This document shows positions 1,809-20,978 of a stretch of DNA of 64,000 nt, piece after piece. A program made the translations under genes and the position numbers. The DNA comes from Candidatus Doudnabacteria bacterium (GTDB lineage Bacteria; Patescibacteriota; Doudnabacteria; UBA920): positions 7,621 through 71,620 of the forward strand of contig JAHFJJ010000001.1 in assembly GCA_023245895.1 (NCBI GenBank). Reading direction: 5' to 3'. The notes under the pieces were generated by a model. It did no database searches, was not told the DNA's origin, and saw only the letters and a list, made by a program, of their open reading frames with translations. Each line of letters opens with the position of its first letter. The stretch's first letter is position 1.

Positions 1809-1836
1809 GTGTAGCGTGCCCATTTATGGGCGATCT
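1809..1836. repeat. REP half-site gtgtagcgtgcccatttatgggcgatct, flanking the RAYT on the left
   Basis: Hairpin gccca-tttat-gggc. The same unit recurs at 3720, 8133, 8781 and 20927. It is the inverted partner of the unit at 2266-2291. Confidence 0.7.
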
Positions 1837-1847
1837 AAGATCTAAAT

Positions 1848-2261
1848 ATGGATGGAAGAAAAAAAATTAGGCTAAAGAATTATGACTACAAAAGTAACGG
1901 CTACTACTTTATTACAGCTGTTTCCAAATTAAGAGAAAATATATTTTTAGGCAAAGAATACTTAGTTGAGGTGGAACTAAAAGACCTGCAAAGTAAAACT
2001 CCCGGAGTAAATCTTGATTATTTCGTAATAATGCCGAACCATATTCATGCTATACTAATTTTACAAAATTGCGATTTGCATTTAGGAGAGATAATTAGAA
2101 GGCTTAAGGCCAAAGTATCGTATAGCTTCGGACAGAACGTTTGGCAAGCCAATTACTACGAGCATGTAATTAGAAATGAGACAGCACTTACAAAAATTAG
2201 AGAATATATCATTAACAATCCGCAAGAGCTTTTATTAAAATTCGATAATTTCTATAAATAA
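1848..2261 (+). CDS. IS200/IS605-family Y1 (HuH) transposase, REP-associated (RAYT-like)
   Basis: HuH motif MPNHIHAIL. A tyrosine-bearing C-terminal segment ANYYEHVIRNE. The 137 aa size is typical of TnpA(IS200). It is flanked at 12-40 nt on each side by inverted REP units. Confidence 0.8.
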   Translation: MDGRKKIRLKNYDYKSNGYYFITAVSKLRENIFLGKEYLVEVELKDLQSKTPGVNLDYFVIMPNHIHAILILQNCDLHLGEIIRRLKAKVSYSFGQNVWQANYYEHVIRNETALTKIREYIINNPQELLLKFDNFYK

Positions 2262-2265
2262 CTGG

Positions 2266-2291
2266 GACGCCGATAAATCGGCACGCTACAG
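2266..2291. repeat. REP half-site, right flank of the RAYT
   Basis: gacgccgataaatcggcacgctacag is the near reverse complement of the left unit, with compensating loop changes (cat/gat, ggg/cgg). Confidence 0.7.
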
Positions 2292-2340
2292 CTCCCCCCT
2301 CAAGGGGGAGAACGAAAAGTAAAAGTTAGATAATAATCCC

Positions 2341-3723
2341 ATGCCACTATCATCTATCAGTCCCATTGACGGCCGCTACGCCAAACAAACCAAACCGCTG
2401 GTTGAATTTTTCAGCGAACAGGCTTTAATGCGCTACCGCCTTATTGTTGAAGGCGAATATTTAATCGCGCTGTCGGAACTAAAACTCAAGCTTAGGAAAT
2501 TATCTGACAAAGAAAAAAAACTTATCCGCTCCCTTTATAAATTGCCAACAACCGATGCGCAAATTATTTCTGATATTGAACAGAAAGGCTACAAAAATAT
2601 CCCGGCAACCAACCACGACGTAAAAGCCGTGGAATACTTTTTAAAGTTAAAGCTGGAAAAAACTTCCCTAAAAAAAGTCTTGGAATGGGTGCATTTTGGC
2701 TTAACTTCTTACGATATAAATACTCCCGCCCGCGGCATGATGCTGGGCGATGCTTTGGAAGAAGTAATCTTGCCGAAAATTAATTTGGTAATCCAAAATA
2801 TTGAATCGTTAGCGAAAAAACATAAAAGCCTGCCCATGCTTTCGCGCACCCACGGCCAGCCTGCCTCCCCCACCACTTTTGGCAAGGAGATGGCTGTTTT
2901 TTCCACGAGATTAAAAAAACAATTGGCTGTTCTGAAAAATACAAAAATCTCGGTAAAACTCAGCGGCGCCACCGGCAACTTTAACGCCCATGTGGCGGCT
3001 TACCCAAAAGTTGACTGGATAAAATTTGCCAAAAATTTTATTAACAGCGCCAATAAAAACAGAATCCTCAAACTGGAATTAAATTTGCCCACTACCCAAA
3101 TAGACCCGCATGACAGCGAAGCGGAAATTTTTGACTGTTTGCGCCGTATGAACAGCATTTTAATTGGCTTTAACCAGGACATGTGGCGCTACATTAGCGA
3201 CGAGTGGGTTGGCCAAAAAGCCGTAAAAGGCGAAGTCGGCTCCTCTGCCATGCCGCATAAAATCAACCCCATAAATTTTGAAAACAGCGAAGGCAACTTA
3301 GGCCTGGCCAATGCTTTGTTAAACCATTTTTCGATGAAATTGCCAATCTCGCGACTGCAAAGGGATTTATCAGATTCCACAGTAGAAAGAAACTTTGGTT
3401 CAGCCCTGGCTTACAGCCTAATTGCTTACGAAAATTTACTAAAAGGACTGTCCCGAATTGAGGTAAATAAATTTAAGATGGCGCAAGATTTAAAAGCCCA
3501 TCCCGAAGTCATTGCCGAAGCCATTCAAACAGTCTTGCGCAGGGAAGGCGTAAAAATGCCTTACGAAAAACTTAAAGAACTTACTCGCGGCGAAAAAGTT
3601 ACGCTCAATGATATGCATAAGTTTGTTGATGGTTTAGATGTAAGCGATAAAGTTAAAAAAGAGCTAAAAAAGTTTACCCCGGAAAATTATACCGGATTAG
3701 CAAATAAACTGGCCTTGATGTAG
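2341..3723 (+). CDS. purB: Adenylosuccinate lyase
   Basis: Fumarate-lyase family signature GSSAMPHKINPINFENSEGN. N-terminal SPIDGRYA. 460 aa. Confidence 0.9.
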   Translation: MPLSSISPIDGRYAKQTKPLVEFFSEQALMRYRLIVEGEYLIALSELKLKLRKLSDKEKKLIRSLYKLPTTDAQIISDIEQKGYKNIPATNHDVKAVEYFLKLKLEKTSLKKVLEWVHFGLTSYDINTPARGMMLGDALEEVILPKINLVIQNIESLAKKHKSLPMLSRTHGQPASPTTFGKEMAVFSTRLKKQLAVLKNTKISVKLSGATGNFNAHVAAYPKVDWIKFAKNFINSANKNRILKLELNLPTTQIDPHDSEAEIFDCLRRMNSILIGFNQDMWRYISDEWVGQKAVKGEVGSSAMPHKINPINFENSEGNLGLANALLNHFSMKLPISRLQRDLSDSTVERNFGSALAYSLIAYENLLKGLSRIEVNKFKMAQDLKAHPEVIAEAIQTVLRREGVKMPYEKLKELTRGEKVTLNDMHKFVDGLDVSDKVKKELKKFTPENYTGLANKLALM

Positions 3724-3773
3724 CGTGCCCATTTATGGGCGATCTTAGACGCCGATAAATCGGCACGCTACAC
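3720..3773. repeat. REP doublet (two inverted units with a 3-nt spacer) overlapping the purB stop codon
   Basis: gtagcgtgcccatttatgggcgatct-tag-acgccgataaatcggcacgctacac. The TAG stop of purB is the TAG inside the terminal GTAG of the REP. Confidence 0.8.
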
Positions 3774-3775
3774 GA

Positions 3776-3808
3776 AACAACCCCGGCAAGCCGGGGTTGT
3801 TTTTTTAA
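3776..3808. terminator. Bidirectional rho-independent terminator between purB (+) and the DinB gene (-)
   Basis: aaacaaccccgg-caag-ccggggttgttttttt. A 10-bp GC-rich stem with a T-run on the plus strand and an A-run on the other side. Confidence 0.75.
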
Positions 3809-3815
3809 ATTTGTA

Positions 3816-4316
3816 TTAGTTAGCTTCAGCAGGCTTGTGCTCGCCGTCCCAGGGTTCATCCGCGCTCGGGCCGTAAATGGAAGGCACCAAACCTCCGGCC
3901 AAACGGATGTAAACGCTAAACTGGCCGCGGTGGTGAATGGAATCCATCATCATAAAACCAAACACATCCATAGCGCGGATTTTCATTCCCGCAAAATCCA
4001 CAATTTGGTTGGTTTGCTCTTCGCTCGCCGACTTTATGGCATCCATAGAAGCTTTGTGGTTTTTTTCCAGCAGCGTCAGAATTTCACCCATGGTGGCAGG
4101 GACTTTGTTGTCGTAAACCGAAAAATCTATTTTGCCGTTAAGCGCGTCTGTATTCACTCTTTCTTCCAGGGCAAAATTGTACGCCAGCTCGCCCGCGCTT
4201 TTGGATTTTTCGTGCGGTTTAAAGCTTAGCTTGTCTGCCGGAAAAGCCTTAAGCACGCGGACTGTAGTCTGGTACTCTCTTTCTTTGACATTTAAAAACA
4301 TTTCTTTTTCGTTCAT
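3816..4316 (-). CDS. DinB/YfiT-like (DinB_2) family protein
   Basis: Conserved HHRGQ histidine triad region. The C-terminal GPSADE tail is shared with the paralog at 29470-29970. Confidence 0.7.
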   Translation of the reverse strand: MNEKEMFLNVKEREYQTTVRVLKAFPADKLSFKPHEKSKSAGELAYNFALEERVNTDALNGKIDFSVYDNKVPATMGEILTLLEKNHKASMDAIKSASEEQTNQIVDFAGMKIRAMDVFGFMMMDSIHHRGQFSVYIRLAGGLVPSIYGPSADEPWDGEHKPAEAN

Positions 4317-4540
4317 AAATCTCCTTTAGTCGCCTATGAGCGATCTAATTAATTTTATCTGGATAGTTATTATATCACAAATTTTCCCTGCTAACTTTAG
4401 ACAAAATTTGGTAACATTTCACAACCCTGAGTAAAGTCATAAATTTGCCAGTATTTGATGGACACCTTCTCTGAATTTCTTAAAGATTTCCGAGAAGGTG
4501 CCCATCTGACTTGGTCCTTTGAACTGTTACAAATTTGCTA

Positions 4541-4569
4541 TTGACAATTGGGCGGGTTATGTGTATTAT
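4541..4569 (+). promoter_or_regulatory. Sigma-70-like promoter: TTGACA, 17-nt spacer, TATTAT
   Basis: TTGACA at 4541-4546 and TATTAT at 4564-4569, 68 nt upstream of ATG 4637. A GAGG Shine-Dalgarno sits 8 nt before the ATG. Confidence 0.5.
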
Positions 4570-4636
4570 TTGGATACCTGTGCAACATTTCTAGACAGGA
4601 TAATGTTCACGTTCCAAAACTCAAAGTGAGGAAAAT

Positions 4637-5074
4637 ATGTTGAAGATCAGACTCTTCCTGCCACTGTTGCTCGTCTTGATTATCGGGACGGCAACTTCCG
4701 CTTTCGCGAACACGAGCCCCCCTGAAGCGCTGACAGTGGACTCCGCGGCGGTTCTGAACCAACTCCAGGTCAACGGCACGGCGAGTTACGCCGCTGGCAT
4801 GGAGAATTCCCTTTATATATTTGCTGCTTCGAACAACGGCGCGTCCCCGGGTCACCTTTTGAACCTTACCCTGGCGAACGTCAACGCGAATAGCATGCCC
4901 GACATGAACCTGGCCAACGGCGCTTCGCCCGGCTTTAACATCATTACGATGGCGACGAATACGGCTCCACACGACATAGCCCAAAACGTCGCGGCGAATC
5001 TGCAAACCCTATCGCGGCACCAAGTGGAGGCCACCTCCTCCGCCACGGTGACGTTCGGCAACATCCAGGGCTAA
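4637..5074 (+). CDS. Secreted hypothetical protein with a signal peptide, Ala/Asn/Thr-rich; visibly higher GC than its flanks
   Basis: N-terminal MLKIRLFLPLLLVLIIGTATSAFA looks like a signal peptide. Codon usage is GC3-rich, unlike the neighbours. It has its own promoter and terminator. Confidence 0.5.
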   Translation: MLKIRLFLPLLLVLIIGTATSAFANTSPPEALTVDSAAVLNQLQVNGTASYAAGMENSLYIFAASNNGASPGHLLNLTLANVNANSMPDMNLANGASPGFNIITMATNTAPHDIAQNVAANLQTLSRHQVEATSSATVTFGNIQG

Positions 5075-5087
5075 CTGCGTAACGGCC

Positions 5088-5128
5088 TACGGCCCCTGTG
5101 CATGAGCATAGGGGCCGGTTTCTTTTTT
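5088..5128 (+). terminator. Rho-independent terminator
   Basis: cggcccctgtgcatgagcataggggccgg followed by tttcttttttt. Confidence 0.7.
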
Positions 5129-5159
5129 TACCACGCCAAATGGCGTGTTTTTTGTTGGG

Positions 5160-5170
5160 CATGGTATAAT
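5160..5170 (+). promoter_or_regulatory. Extended -10 element TGGTATAAT upstream of cyoA
   Basis: TGnTATAAT sits only about 12 nt before ATG 5182. That implies a very short leader, or another promoter further upstream. Confidence 0.3.
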
Positions 5171-5181
5171 GAAAATATCAA

Positions 5182-6072
5182 ATGACACGCCGAAACAAAA
5201 TAAAACTGGCTATTTTTATTGCCGTTGACGCCTTACTGGTGGGTTTTTCACTCTGGATGATGGCAAGGCCGGAGTTCCACTTTGGCAACTTTGCCGTACT
5301 CAACCCTAAGGGCATTATTGCGCTAAAGGAACGCGGGCTAATGTTTACATCTGTTTTGTTGATGCTGTTTGCCGTAGTCCCGGCATATTTTCTTTTATTT
5401 TACTTTTCTAAAAAATATAGCGCTAAAAATAATTCCCAAAACAAATATTCGCCAAATTTGGAAAGCAACCTAATTGGCGCGCTTATTTGGGTAGTCCCGA
5501 GTGTTGTTATTTTTATTATTGCGGGAATTATTTGGAAAAGTACCCACGACCTTGACCCATACAAACCCATTGAGTCAAACATAAGACCTTTAACAATACA
5601 GGTTGTGGCACTAAGATGGAAATGGCTGTTTATTTACCCGGAGCAAAACATTGCGACTGTAAATTTTATTGAGTTCCCAAAAGACACGCCTATTAATTTT
5701 GAACTAACTTCAGACGGACCAATGAGTACCTTTTGGATTCCCCAGTTAAGCGGCCAAACCTACGCTATGGCCGCTATGAGCACCAAACTCCACCTAATGG
5801 CAAACGACACCGGAGAATTCAACGGCTTGTCTTCGGAAATAAACGGACAGGGATACTCGGGGATGCGTTTTGTGGCTAAGGCTACATCACAAAATGATTT
5901 TGAAGCCTGGGTGGAATCCATAAAAAAATCCCCGGATATTCTCAACGAAGACCAATATAACGAACTCGAAAAACCGAGCGAAAATAATCCGCGGGCCTAT
6001 TATTCAATGGTGGAAGAAAGTTTGTATAATAACATTATGATGAAGTATATGATACCTGATAAAGCCAAATAG
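5182..6072 (+). CDS. cyoA: Cytochrome bo3 ubiquinol oxidase subunit II
   Basis: FWIPQLSGQTYAMAAMSTKLHLMANDTGEFNGLSSE...GYSGMRF matches the E. coli CyoA C-terminal domain. The CuA Cys/His ligand motif is absent, which marks a quinol oxidase rather than a cytochrome c oxidase. The N-terminus is lipoprotein-like. Confidence 0.85.
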   Translation: MTRRNKIKLAIFIAVDALLVGFSLWMMARPEFHFGNFAVLNPKGIIALKERGLMFTSVLLMLFAVVPAYFLLFYFSKKYSAKNNSQNKYSPNLESNLIGALIWVVPSVVIFIIAGIIWKSTHDLDPYKPIESNIRPLTIQVVALRWKWLFIYPEQNIATVNFIEFPKDTPINFELTSDGPMSTFWIPQLSGQTYAMAAMSTKLHLMANDTGEFNGLSSEINGQGYSGMRFVAKATSQNDFEAWVESIKKSPDILNEDQYNELEKPSENNPRAYYSMVEESLYNNIMMKYMIPDKAK

Positions 6073-8136
6073 ATGTCTCTACTTTTTGGAAAACTTACAT
6101 TAGCCGCCCTGCCCCACGAATGGTTCACCATCGCGGGAACGGTTTCAATGATGTTAGGCGGCCTTGGCGTTGCGCTTTTTTTGACCTACTACAAGCGCTG
6201 GAAATGGCTGTGGACAGAATGGCTGACATCTACCGACCCTAAAAGAATTGGCATTATGTATTTTGTGGTGGCTTCTTTAATGCTGGCCAGGGGCGCTCTG
6301 GACGCGGGCATGATATGGCTACAGCAGGCGCTTTCAGTGGGCAGCTCCCACGGCTACTTAAGCGCCGACCACTTCCAGCAAATTTTTACGGCCCACGGCG
6401 CAATAATGGTCTTTTTTGTTACCATGGGTTTTTTGTCCGGACTAATTAACTACATAATGCCCCTGCAAATTGGCGCGCGCGACGTGGCATCGCCTTTGCT
6501 TAACACTTTAAGCTTTTGGCTTTACGTTGCCGGCGCGGTTTTAATAAATTTGTTTTTCGTGTTCGGCGGGGAATTCGCGGCAACCGGATGGCTGTCCATT
6601 GCCCCGCTTTCGGGCATTGAGTTTTCCCCCGGCGTAGGCGTGGACTACTGGATATGGAGTTTGCAAATTTCCGGCTTGGGCAGTTTGCTTGCGGGCGTGA
6701 ACTTTATTGTCACCATTTTAAAAATGCGAGCGCCGGGCATGACTTTAATGCGCATGCCAATGTTCGTTTGGACATCCCTCTCCAGCATGGTGCTGGTAGT
6801 TTCTGTTTTTCCAATTTTGGCCATGACTTTAATCCTTTTAACTTTAGACCGCCAATTCGGTACGCATTTTTTTACCTCGGGTTTTGGCGGCAACCCCATG
6901 CTTTATACCAACCTTATTTGGTCGTGGGGGCATCCGGAAGTTTATATTTTAATGATACCCGCCTTTGGCGTTTACTCCGAAGTCGTATCTACCTTTAGCC
7001 AGAAAAAATTATTCAGCTACAAGTCTTTGGTTGTCGCGGCCATTCTAATTACTTTGCTTTCGGTTTTGGTCTGGCTTCATCACTTCTTTACCATGGGCGC
7101 GGGCGCTAATGTTAACGCCTTTTTCGGAATTATGACCGGCGTAATTGCGATTCCAACCGGCGTGCAGGTTTTTACCTGGCTGGCCACAATGTACAAAGGA
7201 AAAATTAACTTTAAACAGCCCATGCTCTGGTTTGTTGGCTTTATCTGCACCTTTACCTTGGGCGGAGTGGCCGGAGTCATGCTTGGAATTCCGGGGATTG
7301 ATTTTCAGGTGCACAACAGCCTGTTTTTGGTTGCCCACTTCCATACCATGGCCATAGGCGGAGCGCTGTTCGGGATTTTTTGCGGCATTACCTACTGGTT
7401 CCCCAAAATTACAGGTTTTATGCTAAACGAACGGCTTGGCAAATACGCCTTCTGGTCTTGGATAGTCGGCTTTTTTGTTTCCTTTATGCCGCTCTACATT
7501 TTAGGTTTTATGGGCGCGCCCAGGAGGCTTGACCACTACGATGCATCGTTGGGCTGGCAATGGTTGTTTATAGTCGCGGGTTTTGGATTTTTAATTATTT
7601 GCTTAGGCGCGGCTTTGCAGGTTTTACAAATTATAGTAAGCGTTATACAAAGAAAAGAAAGTATGGATGTTACCGGAGACCCCTGGAACGGTAGGACTTT
7701 GGAGTGGGCAACGTCTTCTCCTCCCCCTGTTTACAATTTTGCAATTATACCCGAAGTTAGGGATCGCGATGCTTTCTGGGATATGAAACAATACGCTGTC
7801 ATTGCGAGAAGTGCAGCCGACGAAGCAATCTTATCCGAGAGTAGATTGCCGCGCCCCTCGGATGCACTCGGGGCTCGCAATGACACACAAAAAATTACTT
7901 ACAAAGATATAGTGATGCCAAAAAACACCGCCATTGGCATCTACATTTCCGCCTGCACCTTCTTTTTTGGCTTTGCTTTTGTTTGGCACATTTGGTGGCT
8001 GGTTATTGCAAGTGCAATAGGCGCAATCGTATGCTTAATTGTCAGGTCGTTCGATGAAGAAACTGAATATGTTATTACTGCGGTGGAAGTTGAAAAAATA
8101 GAAAGCATAAATAAATCTTCTACGTTCCCGATGTAG
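6073..8136 (+). CDS. cyoB: Cytochrome bo3 ubiquinol oxidase subunit I, with an in-frame palindromic-element insertion near the C-terminus
   Basis: Haem-copper oxidase subunit I with 12 or more TM helices and the motifs WFFGHPEVYI-like (GHPEVYILMIPAFG) and HFHTMAIGG. The C-terminal IVMPKNTAIG...VWHIWWL matches the CyoB tail. An extra segment of about 27 aa is encoded by the repeat at 7798-7886. Confidence 0.9.
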   Translation: MSLLFGKLTLAALPHEWFTIAGTVSMMLGGLGVALFLTYYKRWKWLWTEWLTSTDPKRIGIMYFVVASLMLARGALDAGMIWLQQALSVGSSHGYLSADHFQQIFTAHGAIMVFFVTMGFLSGLINYIMPLQIGARDVASPLLNTLSFWLYVAGAVLINLFFVFGGEFAATGWLSIAPLSGIEFSPGVGVDYWIWSLQISGLGSLLAGVNFIVTILKMRAPGMTLMRMPMFVWTSLSSMVLVVSVFPILAMTLILLTLDRQFGTHFFTSGFGGNPMLYTNLIWSWGHPEVYILMIPAFGVYSEVVSTFSQKKLFSYKSLVVAAILITLLSVLVWLHHFFTMGAGANVNAFFGIMTGVIAIPTGVQVFTWLATMYKGKINFKQPMLWFVGFICTFTLGGVAGVMLGIPGIDFQVHNSLFLVAHFHTMAIGGALFGIFCGITYWFPKITGFMLNERLGKYAFWSWIVGFFVSFMPLYILGFMGAPRRLDHYDASLGWQWLFIVAGFGFLIICLGAALQVLQIIVSVIQRKESMDVTGDPWNGRTLEWATSSPPPVYNFAIIPEVRDRDAFWDMKQYAVIARSAADEAILSESRLPRPSDALGARNDTQKITYKDIVMPKNTAIGIYISACTFFFGFAFVWHIWWLVIASAIGAIVCLIVRSFDEETEYVITAVEVEKIESINKSSTFPM
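7798..7886. repeat. Palindromic element family B (gtcattgcgag...ctcgcaatgac) lying in frame inside cyoB
   Basis: Perfect 11-bp terminal inverted repeat, gtcattgcgag at 7798-7808 against ctcgcaatgac at 7874-7884, with nested internal stems. Near-identical to the intergenic copy at 25249-25324. It translates as AVIARSAADEAILSESRLPRPSDALGARNDT, which has no counterpart in E. coli CyoB. Confidence 0.75.
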
Positions 8137-8186
8137 TTAGCCCATTTATGGGCTGTCTATAACAGCTGATAAATCAGCTAACTACA
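8133..8186. repeat. REP doublet (variant) overlapping the cyoB stop codon
   Basis: gtagttagcccatttatgggctgtct-ataac-agctgataaatcagctaactac. The cyoB TAG stop is the GTAG of the REP. Confidence 0.75.
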
Positions 8187-8198
8187 AAACAACAAACT

Positions 8199-8786
8199 AT
8201 GCAAAAACCTGATTTACAAATAACCCAACACAATGACAGCAAAACCATCCTCGGATTTTGGGTCTATTTAATGACGGACTTAATTATGTTCGCTGTGCTG
8301 TTCGCGACTTACGCCGCGCTTAAAACCAGCACCTTTGGCGGCCCCGGCCCAAGCGAACTTTTCAGCCTAAACGGAGCTCTTGCTGAAACGTTGATATTAC
8401 TTACCAGCAGTTTTACCTGCGGACTGGCTATGCTCGCGGCGCATCGCCAAAATAAAAACCAAACCATTATTTGGTTTCTGGTTACACTGGCTCTTGGCCT
8501 AACTTTCCTTGGCCTGGAATTAAAAGAATTTTCACAGCTTATTGCCGAAGGCCATACCTGGCAAAAAAGCGCGTTCTTGTCATCATTCTTTGCGCTCGTC
8601 AGCACTCACGGTTTGCATATTGCAATTGGCTCGCTTTGGATAGTTGTCGCCATAAAACAAATTTACTCGCGCGGACTTACACCTTTTATTACTTCCAAAC
8701 TCACCCGCCTAAGCCTCTTCTGGCACTTTTTGGATATTGTCTGGATTTTTATTTTTACGATTGTTTATTTAATGGCGAAAGTGTAG
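8199..8786 (+). CDS. cyoC: Cytochrome bo3 ubiquinol oxidase subunit III
   Basis: 195 aa with 5 TM helices. HGLHIAIG and FWHFLDIVWIFIF are typical of subunit III. It sits in the cyoABCDE order. Confidence 0.85.
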   Translation: MQKPDLQITQHNDSKTILGFWVYLMTDLIMFAVLFATYAALKTSTFGGPGPSELFSLNGALAETLILLTSSFTCGLAMLAAHRQNKNQTIIWFLVTLALGLTFLGLELKEFSQLIAEGHTWQKSAFLSSFFALVSTHGLHIAIGSLWIVVAIKQIYSRGLTPFITSKLTRLSLFWHFLDIVWIFIFTIVYLMAKV

Positions 8787-8808
8787 CGTACCGATTTATC
8801 GGCGAACT
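8781..8808. repeat. Single REP unit overlapping the cyoC stop codon
   Basis: gtgtagcgtaccgatttatcggcgaact. The TAG stop of cyoC lies within its GTAG. Confidence 0.7.
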
Positions 8809-8810
8809 AA

Positions 8811-8945
8811 GCAAAACTGCGGAGCCTTCTCCCCTGGCAAGGGGAGATGTCATGAGTGCATCCGAATGACAGAGAGGTCGAAACCGAGGAACACCTCATC
8901 TGTCCCTCAGATGCATTCGGGACATCTTCTCCTCAAGGAGAAGAG
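8811..8945. repeat. Cluster of three hairpins between cyoC and cyoD
   Basis: tctcccctggcaaggggaga, then a degenerate family-B core (gagtgcatccgaatgaca ... gatgcattcgggac), then tcttctcctcaaggagaaga. The ORF-track N-terminal extension of the cyoD ORF (8856) is encoded entirely by these hairpins. Confidence 0.55.
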
Positions 8946-8972
8946 GGTACACAAGGAATTGCAAACAAAAAT

Positions 8973-9311
8973 ATGGCAACATTCAAATCCTACATCACCG
9001 GCTTCATATTCTCCATCGCCTTAACCCTAATGGCCTATTTCGCCGTGGCCAACCACGCGCCTAATATACTGCCAATAATCCTAACCCTTGCCATAATCCA
9101 ACTATTCGTCCAGTTAATATTTTTCCTGCACGTCGGCAAAGGCTCAGACAGAATCTGGAACCTGGTAGTTTTATTTTCCACCGTCGGCATTGTGTTAATT
9201 CTGGTCTTAGGCTCAATTTGGATAATGGGGCATTTAAATTACAACATGACGCCCGGACAAGTACAGGAATTTATTTTAAAAGATGAAAGCTTAATGCCGG
9301 ATATGAAATAA
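8973..9311 (+). CDS. cyoD: Cytochrome bo3 ubiquinol oxidase subunit IV
   Basis: From MATFKSYITGFIFSIALTL it runs to about 113 aa with 3 TM helices, the size of E. coli CyoD. I prefer this start over the track start at 8856, which reads through the hairpin cluster. Confidence 0.6.
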   Translation: MATFKSYITGFIFSIALTLMAYFAVANHAPNILPIILTLAIIQLFVQLIFFLHVGKGSDRIWNLVVLFSTVGIVLILVLGSIWIMGHLNYNMTPGQVQEFILKDESLMPDMK

Positions 9312-9321
9312 CCGCTTATGT

Positions 9322-9424
9322 GTCATTGCGGGGAGTCCCGCCCTTTTTGCATAAAAGGGCGGGACGACGTGGCAATCCCTTACCTCGGATAAAAAGATTG
9401 CTTCGGTGCTACTGGCAATGACAA
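9322..9424. repeat. Composite palindromic element (family B ends, gtcattgc...gcaatgaca) between cyoD and cyoE
   Basis: Terminal inverted repeat tgtcattgc/gcaatgaca. Internal hairpins gtcccgccctttt-tgcat-aaaagggcgggac and gcaatc...gattgc. Confidence 0.65.
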
Positions 9425-9427
9425 AAA

Positions 9428-10318
9428 TTGCTTATGTTCAAAACCTACTACAAATTAGCCAAACCCGGAATTATTTACGGCAATGCCATAAATGCGATTG
9501 CCGGGTTTTTACTTGCCTCGCAGGACGGTTACGATTTTAGACTGTTAATGATAACCCTAATCGGTATTTCCTTGATAGTCGCCTCGGCCTGCGTTTTCAA
9601 CAACATTTGGGACGCGGAGATTGACGCCAAAATGGAACGCACCAAAAACCGCGCCATGGCAGTAAAATCCATAACAAAATCCAACGCGGCTGTTTACGGC
9701 GGCTTGCTTTTCATGCTGGGAGCAACTATTCTCCACTATCACATAAACGATGCCGCGCTCTTTGCCGCGTCTTTTGGTTTTTTAGTTTATGTATTCCTTT
9801 ATACCCCGCTCAAACGCCATACAATTTACGCCACGCAAATTGGCGCGGTTGCGGGAGCCATGCCCGCCGTTGCCGGATACACTGCCATAACGAATAATTT
9901 TGACCTTGGGGCCGGAATATTGTTTTTAATTATAGCCCTCTGGCAAATGCCCCACTTTTACGCCATAGCCATTTACAGGATGGATGAATACGCCGCGGCC
10001 GGTGTCCCCGTCCTTTCGGTTAAAAAAGGCATAAATTTTACCAAAATAAGTACTTTAATTTATTTAATAGCCTTTACTGCTTCTACCAGCTTACTAACGG
10101 TATACGGCTTGACCGGCTACCTTTATTTGGCGGTAATGTTGTTATTAGGCTTAATCTGGCTCTACAAAGGCGTAAAAGGACTTTCCGCCAGAGGCGGATC
10201 CGCCTTTGGCGGAAAAGTTGCTGACGATATTCTGTGGGCAAAAAAGATGTTCCGGTTATCGCTTATTATAATTTTGGCCTTTTGTGTTATAATTCCTATA
10301 GATAAATTTTTCAAATGA
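9428..10318 (+). CDS. cyoE: Protohaem IX farnesyltransferase (haem O synthase), carrying a 28-nt palindrome in frame
   Basis: UbiA-family polyprenyltransferase with about 9 TM helices and NxxxDxxxD (NNIWDAEIDAKMERT). It is the last gene of the cyo operon. Residues SARGGSAFGG are encoded by the palindrome at 10185-10212. Confidence 0.9.
   Translation: MLMFKTYYKLAKPGIIYGNAINAIAGFLLASQDGYDFRLLMITLIGISLIVASACVFNNIWDAEIDAKMERTKNRAMAVKSITKSNAAVYGGLLFMLGATILHYHINDAALFAASFGFLVYVFLYTPLKRHTIYATQIGAVAGAMPAVAGYTAITNNFDLGAGILFLIIALWQMPHFYAIAIYRMDEYAAAGVPVLSVKKGINFTKISTLIYLIAFTASTSLLTVYGLTGYLYLAVMLLLGLIWLYKGVKGLSARGGSAFGGKVADDILWAKKMFRLSLIIILAFCVIIPIDKFFK
10185..10212. repeat. Palindrome ccgccagaggcggatccgcctttggcgg inside the cyoE reading frame
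   Basis: The same 28-nt palindrome occurs intergenically at 10839-10866 as a perfect palindrome, and inside rpoD at 53916-53943. Confidence 0.7.
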
Positions 10319-10575
10319 TTTTAGTCTTCCACATAATAATAGCCTTAATAAGCCTCATGCAAACCGGATATGTATTTTTCCGTCCATCCGACTCCGGCCT
10401 TAAAGTTTCTTATGCCTTGGTTATTTTTACCCTAATTAGCGGTTTTGGCTTAGTGCTAAGCAAACCCGCAAACATGACTCAAGCCTGCGTAACCGGTTTG
10501 ATTTACCTTGGCTTTGTTTCTTTCGGAGTTGTTTCAGCAAGATACAGGCTGGCAAAAGCAAAAATAAATCCATAA
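10315..10575 (+). CDS. Small hypothetical membrane protein (2-3 TM helices) overlapping the cyoE stop
   Basis: Hydrophobic 86 aa ORF whose start overlaps the cyoE stop by 4 nt. No recognisable motif. Confidence 0.3.
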   Translation: MILVFHIIIALISLMQTGYVFFRPSDSGLKVSYALVIFTLISGFGLVLSKPANMTQACVTGLIYLGFVSFGVVSARYRLAKAKINP

Positions 10576-10584
10576 ATAAAAAAA

Positions 10585-10612
10585 TACCTCCGTCAGTCAC
10601 GGGGGTATTTTT
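10585..10612. terminator. Bidirectional terminator hairpin
   Basis: atacctccgtcagtcacgggggtat flanked by an A-run and a T-run, between convergent genes. Confidence 0.55.
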
Positions 10613-10622
10613 TTATTGAGCG

Positions 10623-10817
10623 CTATTTTTTGTTTAAAAATTTGGCCGCTTGATAGGCTAAGAAAAGCGCTACCGGCGCCCCTATCCAGCTCACCCACAA
10701 AGGTACTACAAAAGTGGAAATTTTTACCTGCCAACCATTAAGCAGGCGAAGCACATGGACTATGGCGATGACGGTAAAAATAACCGAAATTGTTTGCAAA
10801 TATATTTTTTGTTTCAT
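10623..10817 (-). CDS. Small hypothetical membrane protein, 64 aa with 2 TM helices
   Basis: Hydrophobic ORF between the terminator and the perfect palindrome at 10839. Confidence 0.3.
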   Translation of the reverse strand: MKQKIYLQTISVIFTVIAIVHVLRLLNGWQVKISTFVVPLWVSWIGAPVALFLAYQAAKFLNKK

Positions 10818-10838
10818 TAGTTTATAAGATTAATTTTC

Positions 10839-10866
10839 CGCCAAAGGCGGATCCGCCTTTGGCGGA
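10839..10866. repeat. Perfect 28-nt palindrome ccgccaaaggcggatccgcctttggcgg, the intergenic copy
   Basis: Its reverse complement is identical to itself. Same family as 10185 and 53916. Confidence 0.75.
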
Positions 10867-10975
10867 AATATTTAATATACTGATTATAACATACTTTACC
10901 AAACCTGGCACATTTCCCTGATGCCTGTCAGATACATATTGGCATAAGCCATTAATTTTATATTATTATACCCCT

Positions 10976-12205
10976 TTATTTCGGATTATTTTCTGCCGTG
11001 AGCCTTATTTTACGCGAAATAAGGAAACAAATTAAAATTAAAACCGCGCCGGCTAAGAACGCGTAATTTATGGCAAGCAAAGCAACCGCTCCCCCGGCCA
11101 AAGGCCCGACTATCTGCCCAAGGCTCATATAAGAAAAATTAACTCCCATAATCTCCCCCTGTCTCTGGGGCTCGGTTTCCAAAGAAAGTACAGTTGAGGA
11201 TAAAGTTTGAATTATAGAGTTAGACAGTCCCATAATTATAGAAGCTATAATAAGGCCGGTTAAGGTTTTAACAAAAAACAAAAGTGTGAAAGACGCTGTT
11301 AAAGTAAACAGCGCGAGAGTAAAAGCAGTAAGCACTCCCAATTTTTTACTTACCCTTGGCACTAGGAACAGCTGGCTAACCAGGCCAATGGCCCCGAACA
11401 TCACAAAAACCAAAGATACTCCCTTTGAAGTCAGGCCGATAATTTTTAAAGAAAAAGGCTGGAAAGCAAAAATAAACATACCAAAGGCAAAGGCCCACAA
11501 AAAGGTTATTAAAAGCGTGGAGCCGACCCGTTTGTCAAAAAGCGTTTTGCCCAGCTTTTTAAAGTCAAAAAGTTTCTTATGTTCCACTTGGCCAATATGG
11601 GGGTTGGTTTCGTCTAAAAGCGTAAAAGCCAAAATTACGGCAATAACGGAAATTATGCCGGCTATGATGAAAGGCAGGCTCATGGAGATTCCTACGGTCA
11701 GGGCGGAAATGGCCGGGCCGGCTATAAAACCTATGCCAAAGCACGCGCCAATAATCCCAAAACCTTTGGCTCGGTCCTGTCCCTCAATGGAGTCTGAAAT
11801 CACGGCCTGGGCCACGGGAAAGTTGCCCGCGGTCAAGCCATCCAAAGCCCGGGCCAAGAACAAGAACAGGGCGCTGGGGGCGAAAGCCATAATAAAGAAA
11901 GACACGGCTGTGCCTATTAGCGAAATAATCAGCAAAGGCCTTCTTCCATACCTGTCCGAAAGCATGCCAATTACCGGCGTAGATATAAATTGGCAAATGG
12001 AAAAAACAGAAAACAGGATGCCATTTTCAAAATCCGAAAGCCCGTATTTTACAGAATACGGATATAAAATAGGGATTACAATCCCGTAACCCAAAGCGCC
12101 CACCAAAGTAACCGCAGCAATTACTATAAGCCGTTTGTTGTTTTTAATCATAGGTTTCATTTTAGCAAAAAATCCCGGTTTTGCCAATGAAGCTCCCCGC
12201 GGCAA
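10976..12205 (-). CDS. MFS transporter, drug:H+ antiporter-like, 12 TM helices
   Basis: MFS motif A GMLSDRYGRRPLL, 12 predicted TM segments, 409 aa. Confidence 0.8.
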   Translation of the reverse strand: MPRGASLAKPGFFAKMKPMIKNNKRLIVIAAVTLVGALGYGIVIPILYPYSVKYGLSDFENGILFSVFSICQFISTPVIGMLSDRYGRRPLLIISLIGTAVSFFIMAFAPSALFLFLARALDGLTAGNFPVAQAVISDSIEGQDRAKGFGIIGACFGIGFIAGPAISALTVGISMSLPFIIAGIISVIAVILAFTLLDETNPHIGQVEHKKLFDFKKLGKTLFDKRVGSTLLITFLWAFAFGMFIFAFQPFSLKIIGLTSKGVSLVFVMFGAIGLVSQLFLVPRVSKKLGVLTAFTLALFTLTASFTLLFFVKTLTGLIIASIIMGLSNSIIQTLSSTVLSLETEPQRQGEIMGVNFSYMSLGQIVGPLAGGAVALLAINYAFLAGAVLILICFLISRKIRLTAENNPK

Positions 12206-12276
12206 GCCCTTTTACAAGCTCTTGCACATACTATCCTCTGCTTTGTGTGGATAACCTCCCACTAGAATAAATTTAG

Positions 12277-12942
12277 TCATAATTTTTTTAATAACTCTAA
12301 AGTTACCTCTCTAAGACTGCCGACTACTATGTCAGCCCTGGCGAAATTGTGGTCTTTAGTATAAATATTCGGAATGGCTATGGCTTTCATCCCGGCGTCT
12401 TTGGCAGAAATTATTCCGACATCTGTATCTTCTAAAACTATACATTCTTCCGGCTTTACTCCTATTTCTTTAGCGGTATGAAGGTAAATATCGGGATAAG
12501 GCTTACCCCTTCTTCCTTCCGCGGGCCCGACAATAGTACGGAAGTGGTGCTTAACCTTTAACTTTTCCAAAACTAAGTGCAGGAATGTTTCATTCCTATT
12601 GGAAGCCAGCGCGATTATTAATTTGTTTTCTTGGAGTAACGCAATAAGTTCGATAAACCCCGGAAATGCTTTAATTTCCTCCTCTTCCACCATTTTCTGC
12701 CAGTAGGCCCGCTTTTTATCCCGCACAATATCAGCATCTATTGGCAGATTATATTGTTTCTTAAAATTTTCATAATAAGTTTTTGCTTCCACAGCCCCTC
12801 CAATCTTATGCAACAAGCCGTTTTCATAGAGCTCGGCCTTTATTCCATATTCATTAAGCAGCTTTTCAAAAGAACGGGATTCTATAATCTCTGTATCAAG
12901 GATAAGTCCGTCCATGTCAAAAATCACAGCTTTGTATTTCAT
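12277..12942 (-). CDS. HAD-superfamily hydrolase, beta-phosphoglucomutase/phosphatase-like
   Basis: N-terminal AVIFDMDGLILDTE (the DxD motif of HAD subfamily IA). A C-terminal ...DTDVG... region. Confidence 0.75.
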   Translation of the reverse strand: MKYKAVIFDMDGLILDTEIIESRSFEKLLNEYGIKAELYENGLLHKIGGAVEAKTYYENFKKQYNLPIDADIVRDKKRAYWQKMVEEEEIKAFPGFIELIALLQENKLIIALASNRNETFLHLVLEKLKVKHHFRTIVGPAEGRRGKPYPDIYLHTAKEIGVKPEECIVLEDTDVGIISAKDAGMKAIAIPNIYTKDHNFARADIVVGSLREVTLELLKKL

Positions 12943-13403
12943 AACTTTTTTTTATAAAAAATTACTTCCAAAGGCCAGCCTTCGGTTGCCCTTCTTACTT
13001 CTGTAAACCCATATTTTTGGTAAAATTTTTGGGCTACAACCTGTTTAACAGTCGTATCAAGCACCAAATCCGTAAACCCCAACTGCCTTGCCCTGTCTTC
13101 TAATTTTTTCAGCATGATTTTACCTAATCCCTGGCCTTGCAGTTCAGGCAGCACCCTCATTCTTTTAATCTCGGCCGTTGTTGTAGAAATTTTTTTAAGC
13201 GCGCCCATTACAACCAGCCTGCCCTCCATAAACCCAACCAAAAACTCGCCTCCCTGCAAATACACCTCAGGGATTTTATCCAAGTCCCCGTCCCACTTGC
13301 CGCTTTTATAAAACGCCCCGGCAGACTTTAATGCCGCCTCATGAAGATTCTTTACCTGTTGCTTGTCAGCATCATCGTATTGGCGAAAAATAATTTTGTC
13401 CAT
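12939..13403 (-). CDS. GNAT family N-acetyltransferase
   Basis: Acetyl-CoA binding motif VLPELQGQGLGKIMLKKLEDRARQLG (Q/RxxGxG/A). Its stop overlaps the HAD gene start by 4 nt. Confidence 0.8.
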   Translation of the reverse strand: MDKIIFRQYDDADKQQVKNLHEAALKSAGAFYKSGKWDGDLDKIPEVYLQGGEFLVGFMEGRLVVMGALKKISTTTAEIKRMRVLPELQGQGLGKIMLKKLEDRARQLGFTDLVLDTTVKQVVAQKFYQKYGFTEVRRATEGWPLEVIFYKKKL

Positions 13404-13422
13404 AGTTCATTATTTATAAAAT

Positions 13423-14544
13423 TTACTGAAACTGAATATAAACCGGGATGGGAGTAAGTTTCAAGAGTTGCTGGGGTGTTAACATCCCGCCGCCCACAAC
13501 GTCGTTTTTATAAAAAAGTTTAAAGCCCGTGAATTGGATTGGCTCTTTATATACATACTGCTGGTAAGTATTTAGCTTGGCGCCCTGTCCGCCAAAGCCG
13601 TCCATGTCCATAACAATTTGGACTTCGGGAAGAGGCTGGATTTTTTTTGCGTTGGTGACCATTGCCTGGGTAAACCGGTGGACTATGAGAACTTTGGGCG
13701 TGAGGTTGTTATCGCGGACAATTTTTGCAAGATACTCCGCGGCAAAATTAAAATCAGCCGCGTCCAAAGTCCCTATTACGGTGCCCGGCCTTTGGCCGTT
13801 ATGCATGGCAAACTCCGGGTCTATGCCCAAATGCACATTGGGAAGTTTTAAATACTTTTCCAAAAGCGGGACTTCTGTTTGGACATTGCTTTGCCCGACT
13901 TGGATGTCCAAAAATACCAAACCGTGGATTTTATCAGCCATTGCTAATACTTTTTTTATTTCCGACTCCGGCATCCTTGCTCTATATTTTCCGTCGCGCC
14001 CTCCACCGGCCTGCGCTACTACCACAATGTAATGAAGTGCAGGGATTACTGGCGTAGTCGGATCGGCCTCCTGCCATTTCTTTACTTCGCTTGATAGTTT
14101 ATCCAGCATGACATCTTCGGTATACTCGCCCAGCACGCCCATGCCCTTTGAATATAAATTTCCGTAATAAGCCACTATCCGGTTAAAAGGCAAAAGCGCC
14201 CCGTAATTTGGGTAAACGGTTTTTACCGGCCATAGTAGGTTTTCCTTGCTCCCTCTCCCTATGGGAGAGGGCCGGGGTGAGGGTTCTGTGGACGTAGCAG
14301 TTGATGATGCGACTACAGGATTATTCGCTATCTGCTCTAACTTTAAATCATAAGCCACAAAATCCAGTTTAGGCGGTTCGGGAACGGGCGTTACTGTTTC
14401 CGCTGATTTAACCTGTCCGGGTTTTTGCATAACCGCAATTTTAGGATGGCTAAAAATCTTAAACTTCAAATAAAACCCTGCACATACCAAAACCGCCGCA
14501 GCCGTGATAAACCAAAAAACTTTATTTTTAAGCACATTTTTCAT
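13423..14544 (-). CDS. Membrane-anchored hypothetical protein with a Pro/Ser/Thr linker, carrying a short palindromic element in frame
   Basis: An N-terminal TM anchor followed by a large extracytoplasmic domain of unknown family. Residues SPRPSPIGRGS are encoded by the hairpin ccctctccctatgggagagggccggggtgaggg at 14251-14283. Confidence 0.45.
   Translation of the reverse strand: MKNVLKNKVFWFITAAAVLVCAGFYLKFKIFSHPKIAVMQKPGQVKSAETVTPVPEPPKLDFVAYDLKLEQIANNPVVASSTATSTEPSPRPSPIGRGSKENLLWPVKTVYPNYGALLPFNRIVAYYGNLYSKGMGVLGEYTEDVMLDKLSSEVKKWQEADPTTPVIPALHYIVVVAQAGGGRDGKYRARMPESEIKKVLAMADKIHGLVFLDIQVGQSNVQTEVPLLEKYLKLPNVHLGIDPEFAMHNGQRPGTVIGTLDAADFNFAAEYLAKIVRDNNLTPKVLIVHRFTQAMVTNAKKIQPLPEVQIVMDMDGFGGQGAKLNTYQQYVYKEPIQFTGFKLFYKNDVVGGGMLTPQQLLKLTPIPVYIQFQ
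14251..14283. repeat. Hairpin element ccctctccc-tatg-ggagaggg-ccggggtgaggg inside an ORF
   Basis: A related element, cccctctcttttcaaaagagaggggcggggtgag, lies intergenically at 56216-56250 immediately upstream of dnaG. Confidence 0.6.
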
Positions 14545-14609
14545 GTATTTACAGTATACGCCAAAATTAAAAAGCGCCCAAACGGACGCTTTTTAATTTA
14601 GCTCAAGCT

Positions 14610-15008: not shown

Positions 15009-15072
15009 GGTAATTTCCTTTCTTTTTTAATATTAATTTTTCCTATATAATACTTATAAATAAGGAGGTCTT

Positions 15073-15336: not shown

Positions 15337-15344
15337 CCCCCACC

Positions 15345-16351: not shown

Positions 16352-16367
16352 ACGTCTTACCAGCCAA

Positions 16368-16410: not shown

Positions 16411-16447
16411 CGAAATACGCTTTGCTCTAAAAGACCCAACCGGAAAG

Positions 16448-20926: not shown

Positions 20927-20978
20927 GTAGTTGCCTGATTTATCAGGCCCTTGGAGGCTCGATAAATCGAGCAACTAC
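20927..20978. repeat. REP doublet (variant) in the intergenic region of the GC-rich island
   Basis: gtagttgcctgatttatcaggc-ccttggag-gctcgataaatcgagcaactac. Same gtag...ctac termini and ttatc/gataa loop logic as the REPs at 3720 and 8133. Confidence 0.7.

What the first reader, a model, noticed from the sequence alone, without database searches (positions are those of the whole stretch)
1809..2291. REP-RAYT system whose REPs supply the stop codons of purB, cyoB and cyoC
An IS200-like Y1 transposase with the HuH motif MPNHIHAIL is flanked by inverted REP units. The same REPs occur at 3720-3773, 8133-8186, 8781-8808 and 20927-20978. In three cases the terminal GTAG of the REP begins exactly at the last sense codon, so the TAG stop of purB, cyoB and cyoC is part of the REP. 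That implies REP insertion replaced the native gene ends. REP variants show compensatory stem changes (cat/gat with ggg/cgg; gcc/agc).
Basis: partly seen in the sequence, partly recalled or inferred. Interest (0 to 1): 0.6.

Follow-up and report, generated by a model that had tools for sequence, protein, structure and literature searches.

The report
REP hairpin repeats doubling as stop codons
A small uncultured (Patescibacteria) bacterium carries a known kind of short hairpin repeat and its helper enzyme, and the repeat's fixed GTAG head is used as the TAG stop codon of three genes; this overlap is real and non-random but already described in other bacteria, and it has not shortened or lengthened the proteins.

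Summary
A 137-aa HUH/Y1 transposase (1848-2261) closest to E. coli TnpAREP is flanked by inverted REPs. Nine REP units (YGTAG + 3 nt + 4-5 bp stem + loop) lie at five sites, and the TAG of GTAG is the stop codon of purB, cyoB and cyoC. The overlap is not chance. Among 212 REP units collected from related metagenome contigs, 19 have their TAG exactly as the stop of an ORF of at least 100 codons; no other single offset has more than 4.

The interpretation that REP insertion replaced the native gene ends is not supported. PurB and CyoC end at the same residue position as their REP-free orthologues. CyoB's tail is naturally variable and of ordinary length. At most the last two bases of the final codon plus the stop are REP sequence.

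The phenomenon is published: Di Nocera et al. 2013 state that GTAG REP termini often provide the TAG stop of flanking ORFs. What is new is the host lineage, a Doudnabacteria-like Patescibacteria. There the RAYT sits between purC and purB in three species, consistent with vertical inheritance. I found no paper describing REP-RAYT systems in this phylum. Verdict: a new member of a known kind, of modest interest.

The parts
1810..1836 (+). Left REP unit flanking the RAYT gene (T-GTAG-CGT-GCCC-ATTTAT-GGGC-GATCT). It lies 11 nt upstream of the RAYT start codon.
   Evidence: Exact pattern match with 0 matches in shuffles. Stem/loop scan. Sequence read.
1848..2261 (+). RAYT gene: a 137-aa HUH/Y1 transposase with HUH = H65-I-H67 and catalytic Tyr120 aligned to E. 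coli TnpAREP Y115. It is the only copy in the window and sits between purC and purB.
   Evidence: Pfam Y1_Tnp, 27.8 bits. NCBIfam REP_Tyr_transpos, 74.4 bits against a cut-off of 80. PDB 4ER8 at E 1.8e-7 with the single sequence and 2.4e-14 with the family profile. AF2 model with pLDDT 85; best fold hit 4ER8, rmsd 2.1 A. No second copy in the window.
2266..2290 (-). Right REP unit flanking the RAYT gene, inverted relative to the left one (GTAGCGTGCCGATTTATCGGCGTC on the minus strand). It starts 4 nt after the RAYT stop.
2341..3723 (+). purB (adenylosuccinate lyase). Its last codon ATG and stop TAG (3721-3723) overlap the TGTAG head of the following REP doublet.
   Evidence: Pfam Lyase_1 + ASL_C. 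Sequence. Orthologue C-termini.
3719..3772 (.). REPIN-like inverted REP doublet with GTAG heads facing outward. Both arms are 100% identical to the RAYT-flanking REPs. The left head supplies the purB stop.
   Evidence: Folds as a long hairpin at -22 kcal/mol, z -7.6.
6073..8136 (+). cyoB (quinol oxidase subunit I). Its last codon ATG and stop TAG (8134-8136) overlap the REP head.
   Evidence: Pfam COX1. Sequence. Tail alignment.
8132..8187 (.). REPIN-like inverted doublet of a variant REP (GTAGTTAGCCC.../GTAGTTAGCTG...) in the cyoB-cyoC spacer. The left head supplies the cyoB stop.
   Evidence: Fold at -16.7 kcal/mol, z -7.2.
8199..8786 (+). cyoC (quinol oxidase subunit III). Its last codon GTG and stop TAG (8784-8786) overlap the REP head.
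   Evidence: Pfam COX3. Sequence. C-terminus comparison.
8782..8806 (+). Single, slightly degenerate REP unit (GTAGCGTACCGATTTATCGGCGAA, with a weakened outer stem pair) that supplies the cyoC stop.
   Evidence: 3-mismatch match. Weak hairpin, -2.9 kcal/mol, z -0.1.
20927..20978 (.). REPIN-like inverted doublet of a third REP variant (GTAGTTGCCTG.../GTAGTTGCTCG...). It is intergenic and does not touch a stop codon.
   Evidence: Fold at -14.4 kcal/mol, z -5.4.

Best explanation
This is a REP/REPIN-RAYT system of the GTAG-tagged kind in a Doudnabacteria-like Patescibacteria genome.

Shown here:
- A single RAYT gene sits inside the purine operon, flanked by inverted REPs.
- The same REPs, as single units or inverted doublets, are scattered through nearby intergenic spacers.
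- Each unit has a conserved unpaired head, (T/C)GTAG. A short hairpin follows, and its stem is kept by compensatory changes.
- The RAYT is syntenic (purC-RAYT-purB) in related species.
- About 9% of REP units have their TAG in frame at the end of the upstream gene, where it serves as that gene's stop codon.
- PurB and CyoC keep the length of their REP-free orthologues, and CyoB's tail length is ordinary. The REP therefore coincides with the native stop position and does not cut into the gene.

Inferred from E. coli TnpAREP biochemistry:
- The RAYT binds the hairpin plus the GTAG guide and cleaves and joins single-stranded DNA, which spreads and maintains the repeats.

Inferred:
- The overlap position accumulates because it is the closest a REP can lie to a gene without damaging it. 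It needs only xTG TAG in place of xTx TAA.
- In very compact genomes, insertion close to gene ends and/or deletional squeezing of spacers would pile elements up at that boundary.
- A hairpin that starts 3 nt after the stop may also influence termination or 3' mRNA stability within the cyo operon.
For: RAYT identity:
- HUH motif and Tyr aligned to TnpAREP.
- The family profile hits 4ER8 at 2.4e-14, against 8e-5 for ISDra2 TnpA.
- The best structural match is 4ER8, rmsd 2.1 A.
- All 31 aligned family members hit NCBIfam REP_Tyr_transpos.

REP family:
- Exact repeats flank the gene and recur at four more sites.
- The purB doublet equals the two RAYT-flanking REPs joined together.
- Stem covariation is 132 complementary combinations of 133.
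- The doublets form stable hairpins.
- The same REP consensus flanks RAYT orthologues in L043 and L045.
- The REP pattern occurs in more than 120 metagenome stretches.

Vertical inheritance:
- purC-RAYT-purB synteny holds in L043 and L045.
- RAYT identity between the window and these relatives is 78%, comparable with PurC at 78-81% and PurB at 70-71%.

Stop-codon overlap is non-random:
- 19 units sit at offset 0; every other offset has 4 or fewer.
- The cases include another PurB (L071) and a RAYT gene itself (L159).

No truncation:
- C-terminus comparisons for PurB, CyoC and CyoB.
- The C-terminal Pfam domains are complete in the other REP-stopped genes, e.g. HGTP_anticodon 1-93/94 and PMM 3-218/221.

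Prior description:
- PMC3733652 states that GTAG REP termini often provide the TAG stop.
- PMC3479197 describes GTAG as the protein-bound guide sequence.
Against: - The NCBIfam equivalog score, 74.4, is below the curated cut-off of 80.
- No whole genome was available, so copy number and single-copy status rest on 64 kb plus related contigs.
- No strain-level empty/filled site pair was found. The order of events (insertion at the stop, against later sliding by deletion) is therefore undetermined.
- The spike at offset 0 is much larger than at the abutting offsets (-5: 4 units). Passive tolerance alone may not explain that.
- The cyoC unit barely folds.
- RAYT activity on these REPs is untested.
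Confidence: 0.85

Rival explanations
1. REP insertions landed inside the 3' ends of purB, cyoB and cyoC and replaced the native C-termini, and the REP's TAG created new, truncated or altered gene ends.
For: The TAG stops are inside the REP head. The last residues are Met, Met and Val, as dictated by the REP's T-1/G0, whereas PurB orthologues mostly end in Leu, Ser or Lys. A different palindromic element does supply the last 8 codons and the stop of cyoB in a relative, L173, so gene-end replacement does happen in this lineage.
Against: PurB ends at the same position as the nearest REP-free orthologues. CyoC ends at the same position as 71 of 120 homologues and as the 82%-identical REP-free L172. 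The length of CyoB's tail lies within the normal range. C-terminal domains are complete in other REP-stopped genes. At most 2 nt plus the stop are REP sequence.
Confidence: 0.08
2. Active targeting or selection. The RAYT inserts REPs preferentially at stop codons or TAG-like sites. Alternatively, REPs fused to the stop are positively selected as 'stop plus hairpin' cassettes that tune termination, tmRNA rescue or 3' mRNA decay, for example setting subunit ratios in the cyoABCD operon.
For: The spike at offset 0 (19 units) is far above the neighbouring offsets, which have 4 or fewer. REP-at-stop is shared by orthologous genes in different species: the MurI pair L080/L085, the phosphoribosyltransferase pair L119/L122, and PurB in the window and in L071. 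In E. coli, REPs within 15 nt of a stop are reported to stall ribosomes and lower translation, as summarised in PMC12306157.
Against: No biochemical data exist for this RAYT. In E. coli, GTAG is a guide bound by the protein and cleavage occurs at CT dinucleotides, not at TAG. About 90% of REP units are not at stops. An absorbing boundary under deletion bias could give the same spike. The cyoC unit is degenerate and barely folds.
Confidence: 0.2
3. The hairpins are ordinary intrinsic terminators or unrelated palindromes, and the GTAG/TAG overlap is coincidence.
For: They are short G+C-rich hairpins downstream of genes.
Against: None of the REP units is followed by a T-run. The purB doublet is followed by a separate terminator-like hairpin with a T-run at about 3776-3806. 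The same sequences flank a RAYT gene. Two REP sites lie between cistrons of one operon. The family is conserved across species, with a fixed YGTAG head and covarying stems. The pile-up at offset 0 excludes coincidence.
Confidence: 0.02

Closest known systems
E. coli TnpAREP (RAYT) with its REP/BIME sequences (PDB 4ER8; Ton-Hoang 2012, Messing 2012)
   Same: Both have the HUH motif and a single catalytic Tyr on the same fold, and 4ER8 is the best sequence and structure match. In both, the gene is flanked by inverted REPs. In both, the REP is an unpaired 5' GTAG followed by a short hairpin.
   Different: Sequence identity is only 26%. The protein is 137 aa rather than 165 aa and lacks the C-terminal tail that in TnpAREP contacts GTAG (my reading of the alignment). 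The stems are shorter (4-5 bp) with an ATTTAT loop region. The host is a Patescibacteria, not a gammaproteobacterium. The score is below the NCBIfam equivalog cut-off.
GTAG-tagged REP superfamily (Di Nocera, De Gregorio & Rocco 2013, BMC Genomics 14:522)
   Same: The units have an unpaired GTAG tag at one end of a short palindrome. They occur as single units and as dimers, lie close to or overlap ORF ends, and are associated with RAYT genes. The paper states explicitly that GTAG REP termini often provide the TAG stop codon of flanking ORFs.
   Different: That survey covered Proteobacteria, Cyanobacteria, Chloroflexi, the PVC group and others (8 phyla) and predates most CPR genomes. Here the offset distribution is quantified, and I show that protein lengths are unchanged.
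REPIN-RAYT systems of Pseudomonas and Enterobacteria (Bertels & Rainey 2011 and later work)
   Same: The mobile unit appears to be an inverted REP doublet. The RAYT is single-copy and consistent with vertical inheritance. The RAYT diverges at a rate similar to neighbouring housekeeping genes.
   Different: The doublets are very short, with a modal span of 52-53 nt. By my strict criterion most units are single. The population structure of the REPINs could not be analysed without a full genome.
Rickettsia palindromic elements and other intragenic MITEs
   Same: These are palindromic repeats that become part of coding sequence. In this window a different element (terminal inverted repeat TGTCATTGCGAG) lies in frame inside cyoB, and in a relative it supplies the cyoB tail.
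   Different: The GTAG REPs studied here contribute only the stop codon and at most two bases of the last codon. They add no peptide segment.

Membership tests
RAYT (REP-associated tyrosine transposase, IS200/IS605 HUH-Y1 superfamily) | HUH metal-binding motif and a single catalytic tyrosine on the Y1 fold | tested here: met
   H65-I-H67 lies within MPNHIHAIL. Y120 aligns with TnpAREP Y115. H67 and Y120 are invariant and H65 nearly invariant (at least 90%) in 31 homologues. AF2 model with pLDDT 85 and a beta-alpha fold.
RAYT (REP-associated tyrosine transposase, IS200/IS605 HUH-Y1 superfamily) | Closer to the RAYT clade than to classical IS200/IS605 TnpA | tested here: met
   The family profile scores 2.4e-14 against 4ER8 and 8e-5 against the best IS200/IS605 entry. 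Foldseek puts 4ER8 at the top with rmsd 2.1 A, against 5.9 A or more for the others. NCBIfam REP_Tyr_transpos scores 8.5e-21 against 2e-3 for transpos_IS200.
RAYT (REP-associated tyrosine transposase, IS200/IS605 HUH-Y1 superfamily) | Passes the curated NCBIfam equivalog threshold (NF047646) | tested here: not met
   74.4 bits against a cut-off of 80. The protein is a divergent member by that curated criterion.
RAYT (REP-associated tyrosine transposase, IS200/IS605 HUH-Y1 superfamily) | Gene flanked by inverted copies of a REP that is dispersed elsewhere in the genome | tested here: met
   REPs at 1811-1836 (+) and 2266-2289 (-), with seven more units at four sites. The same arrangement is seen in L043, L045 and L048.
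RAYT (REP-associated tyrosine transposase, IS200/IS605 HUH-Y1 superfamily) | Single copy per genome, vertically inherited | tested here: inconclusive
   There is one copy in 64 kb. Position is syntenic in two other species, and divergence is like that of the neighbouring genes. The exact protein is always found in the same context. The whole genome was not available.
RAYT (REP-associated tyrosine transposase, IS200/IS605 HUH-Y1 superfamily) | Binds and cleaves its REP | not testable with these tools
   Needs biochemistry.
GTAG-tagged REP / REPIN | Unpaired 5' GTAG followed by a short palindrome | tested here: met
   All nine units in the window have it. In the census, T is at position -1 in 84% of units, and positions 7-10 pair with positions 17-20.
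GTAG-tagged REP / REPIN | Multi-copy and dispersed, mainly extragenic | tested here: met
   Nine units at five sites in the window. 170 distinct loci were collected. The genome-wide count for this organism is not known.
GTAG-tagged REP / REPIN | Inverted doublets (REPINs) able to form a long hairpin | tested here: met
   Three doublets in the window. 28 of 33 census doublets have their GTAG heads outward. Fold energies are -14 to -22 kcal/mol with z -5.4 to -7.6.
GTAG-tagged REP / REPIN | Stem maintained by compensatory changes | tested here: met
   At the unconstrained positions S10/S17 the combinations are G-C 85, C-G 47, G-G 1, C-C 0.
Intrinsic (Rho-independent) terminator | G+C-rich hairpin followed directly by a run of T | tested here: not met
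   No T-run follows any REP unit (sequences). A separate hairpin with a T-run lies downstream of the purB doublet at about 3776-3806.

The most novel reading that the evidence does not exclude
In this streamlined Patescibacteria lineage, REPs would not merely be tolerated next to genes. They would be inserted at, or selectively retained on, stop codons as ready-made 'TAG plus hairpin' cassettes. The RAYT-REP system would then act as a domesticated supplier of termination and mRNA-end modules, for example setting subunit ratios within cyoABCD.
Probability: 0.15. Interest if true: 0.55.

Novelty: new member of a known kind. Interest (0 to 1): 0.3.

Why it matters
It extends REP-RAYT systems to the Patescibacteria/CPR, organisms with very small genomes in which persistent, domesticated repeat systems are not expected to be common. 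It also gives a clean quantitative picture of how often, and how precisely, the REP head is fused to a stop codon without altering protein length. The biological principle (GTAG REPs providing TAG stops, REPs flanking a RAYT) is already in the literature, so the finding refines rather than changes current understanding. The sharp pile-up at the stop codon could serve as a test case for whether RAYTs have target preferences, or whether stop-proximal hairpins are selected.

Tried and rejected
1. GTAG as a pre-existing insertion target, by analogy with the TTAC target of IS608. A relative's purB ends ttG TAG without a REP, which looked supportive. However, the TnpAREP structure paper shows that GTAG is the guide bound by the protein and that cleavage occurs at CT. 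I therefore kept this only as part of a low-probability rival.

2. Search for empty against filled sites. I blasted the flanks of 188 REP loci against all collected loci and aligned the candidates. Only pairs at 70-85% identity were found, which is too diverged to define insertion boundaries. Pairs at 89% identity or more were filled on both sides.

3. Exact look-up of the window's PurB returned nothing.

4. A generic scan for GTAG followed by any hairpin found no additional REP families in the window; the extra hits were about as many as the shuffled expectation of 8.3.

5. Two of the 19 'stop-supplying' ORFs (L045 at 13171 and L053 at 885) have no Pfam hit and look like spurious frames. The credible number is 17.

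6. Literature searches combining RAYT/REPIN terms with CPR or Patescibacteria names found no relevant paper.

Full report
**What is in the window**

The window has 44% G+C. Its closest PurB relatives are Candidatus Nomurabacteria and Doudnabacteria MAGs at 74-75% identity, so it comes from a Patescibacteria/CPR organism. The first 10 kb carry these genes (Pfam):

| Gene | Coordinates |
|---|---|
| purC | 831-1796 |
| 137-aa ORF | 1848-2261 |
| purB | 2341-3723 |
| cyoA | 5182-6072 |
| cyoB | 6073-8136 |
| cyoC | 8199-8786 |
| cyoD | ends 9311 |
| cyoE | 9428-10318 |

**The RAYT**

- The 137-aa ORF matches Pfam Y1_Tnp at 27.8 bits.
- It matches NCBIfam REP_Tyr_transpos at 74.4 bits, just under the curated cut-off of 80. 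It scores far better there than against transpos_IS200.
- It matches E. coli TnpAREP (PDB 4ER8) at E 1.8e-7. H65-I-H67 aligns with the HUH motif and Y120 with the catalytic Y115.
- A profile of 31 homologues hits 4ER8 at 2.4e-14, against 8e-5 for the best IS200/IS605 transposase.
- An AlphaFold model (pLDDT 85) has 4ER8 as its best structural match, rmsd 2.1 A over 113 columns. IS200/IS605 structures come next at 5.9 A or more.
- The protein therefore belongs to the RAYT branch of the family, as a divergent and short member.

**The REPs**

- The gene is flanked by GTAGCGTGCCCATTTATGGGCGATCT at 1811-1836 (+) and by GTAGCGTGCCGATTTATCGGCGTC at 2266-2289 (-).
- The doublet at 3720-3771 consists of exactly these two arms joined by a few bases.
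- Variant doublets lie at 8133-8186 and 20927-20978, and a degenerate single unit lies at 8783-8806.
- All nine units share GTAG, then 7 nt, then ATTTAT, with a 4-5 bp stem around the loop.
- The doublets fold into long hairpins at -14 to -22 kcal/mol, z -5.4 to -7.6.
- A generic search found no further members, and all nine units lie within 20 kb of the RAYT.

**The stop codons**

- Read directly from the sequence, purB ends atG TAG (3721-3723), cyoB ends atG TAG (8134-8136) and cyoC ends gtG TAG (8784-8786). In each case this is the GTAG head of a REP.
- Of the 14 TAG stops among 56 long ORFs in the window, three are REP-supplied.

**Is the overlap more than chance?**

- The same REP consensus flanks RAYT orthologues in other Doudnabacteria contigs (L043, L045). 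I therefore scanned metagenome contigs for GTAGCGTRCCSATTTATSGGC.
- Across all collected DNA there are 208-212 distinct REP units at 170 loci: 133 single units and 33 doublets, 28 of them with GTAG heads outward and a modal span of 52-53 nt.
- For each unit I located the nearest stop of an ORF of at least 100 codons. 19 units have it exactly at the REP's TAG. No other single offset has more than 4, and the mean over -60..-1 is about 0.65. So the overlap is a strong property of the family in this lineage.
- Two of the 19 ORFs look spurious. The other 17 include adenylate kinase, MurI, a Mur ligase, GlyRS, a phosphomannomutase-like protein, another PurB (L071) and a RAYT gene itself (L159).
- The base before GTAG is T in 84% of units and C in 12%, and nothing further upstream is conserved. 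The element thus begins at -1, and a REP-stopped gene must end in an NTG codon (Leu, Met or Val).
- The stem's closing pair was left free in the scan pattern. It is G-C 85 times, C-G 47 times, G-G once and C-C never. This confirms compensatory variation.

**Did REPs replace gene ends?**

- PurB: the nine closest REP-free orthologues (64-75% identity) end at ...KLAxx*. That is the same length as the window's ...KLALM*, except for one that is a residue shorter, and most use TAA. L045 carries the syntenic RAYT, yet its purB ends ttG TAG and is followed by a terminator-like hairpin with no REP. L043 ends cta TAA.
- CyoC: 71 of the 120 closest homologues end at the window's position, and some have the identical tail ...YLMAKV. 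The 82%-identical L172 ends atc TAA one base before the cyoD start codon. L004 ends gtt TAA.
- CyoB: the last 2-12 residues vary in length among orthologues, and the window falls in the middle of that range.
- Other REP-stopped genes have C-terminal Pfam domains that are complete to within 1-3 residues of the end.
- The proteins are therefore neither truncated nor extended.

**How it probably works**

- By homology with TnpAREP, the RAYT binds the hairpin and the GTAG guide, then cleaves and joins single strands (PMC3479197). This step is inferred, not shown.
- The RAYT lies between purC and purB in three species. It has diverged about as much as its neighbours: RAYT 78%, PurC 78-81%, PurB 70-71%. 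This fits the vertically inherited, domesticated behaviour described for RAYTs. A homologue at 58% identity sits elsewhere and has a co-varying REP with an ATTCAT loop.
- Why units pile up exactly on the stop remains unresolved. The position is the only gene-overlapping one that is harmless, so deletional squeezing of spacers would stop there. Insertion preference or selection for a hairpin 3 nt behind the stop cannot be excluded.
- In E. coli, REPs within 15 nt of a stop are reported to reduce translation (summarised in PMC12306157).
- I found no strain-level empty/filled pair that would settle the order of events.

**Comparison with what is known**

- REPs with a 5' GTAG, RAYT genes flanked by them, and REPIN doublets are all well described.
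- Di Nocera et al. [quoted passage not shown]
- The host lineage seems to be new. JGI's automatic annotation already names many of the 1015 homologues 'REP element-mobilizing transposase RayT', and NCBI labels some as Doudnabacteria or Patescibacteria transposases. No paper in the searchable library connects RAYT or REPIN with CPR/Patescibacteria.
- I rate this a new member of a known kind, of modest interest.

**Other things seen**

- A second palindromic element, with terminal inverted repeat TGTCATTGCGAG...CTCGCAATGACA, lies in frame inside cyoB at 7797-7885. It adds about 30 residues that most orthologues lack.
- In the relative L173 the same element supplies the last eight codons and the stop of cyoB. 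That is a true case of a repeat replacing a gene end, but by a different element.
- Further repeat families and an expanded cyoC-cyoD spacer are listed under the things noticed in passing.

Noticed in passing
window 7797-7885 (inside cyoB); also 9321-9423 and 25248-25323: A second palindromic element family with terminal inverted repeat TGTCATTGCGAG...CTCGCAATGACA (8 hits against 0.66 expected). One copy lies in frame inside cyoB and encodes about 30 extra residues (AVIARSAADEAILSESRLPRPSDALGARNDT). Most CyoB orthologues lack these residues and a few share them, which resembles the Rickettsia palindromic elements.
   Followed up: partly
L173 2173-2270 (CyoB relative, 79% identity): In this relative the TGTCATTGCGAG element sits at the very end of cyoB and supplies the last eight codons (VIARRPGL) and the TAA stop. 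This is a genuine repeat-derived gene end, but by a different element from the GTAG REP (tails).
   Followed up: partly
window 10182-10215, 10835-10868, 38537-38570, 53910-53943: A third palindromic repeat family, TTTCCGCCAGAGGCGGATCCGCCTTTGGCGGAAA (a double hairpin). The first copy overlaps the 3' end of the cyoE ORF (family D1).
   Followed up: no
window 8787-8972 (cyoC-cyoD spacer) and 2291-2340: If cyoD starts at about 8973, the cyoC-cyoD spacer is about 186 nt and is filled with the REP plus further palindromes (e.g. ctcccctggcaaggggag and gcatccgaatg/cattcgggac). In the 82%-identical relative L172 the same junction is 1 nt. A similar G-rich hairpin (ctcccccctcaagggggag) follows the right REP of the RAYT.
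   Followed up: partly
window 1810-20978 against 21000-64000: All nine REP units lie within about 20 kb of the RAYT gene, and there are none in the remaining 43 kb. This is reminiscent of the clustering of REPs near the rayt gene noted by Nunvar et al. 2010 for Thauera.
   Followed up: partly
L159 about 1889; L071 about 374 (-); L080 5365 / L085 7311: In related contigs the REP's TAG also terminates a RAYT gene itself (...FDQFYM*, the same length as the window's ...FDNFYK*) and another species' purB. It also terminates orthologous murI genes in two species, with different REP variants.
   Followed up: partly
window 38263-38293 and 38569-38599: Two 100% identical 31-nt direct repeats 306 nt apart (GATTGCTCTACCGTTGAGCTACTCCCGAATA). 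They look like parts of duplicated tRNA genes. This was not checked (family D16).
   Followed up: no
window 5182-10318: A complete cytochrome bo-type quinol oxidase operon (cyoABCDE) in a Patescibacteria genome. Many CPR homologues exist. Aerobic respiratory components in soil CPR are reported in the literature (PMC8407418, title seen).
   Followed up: no
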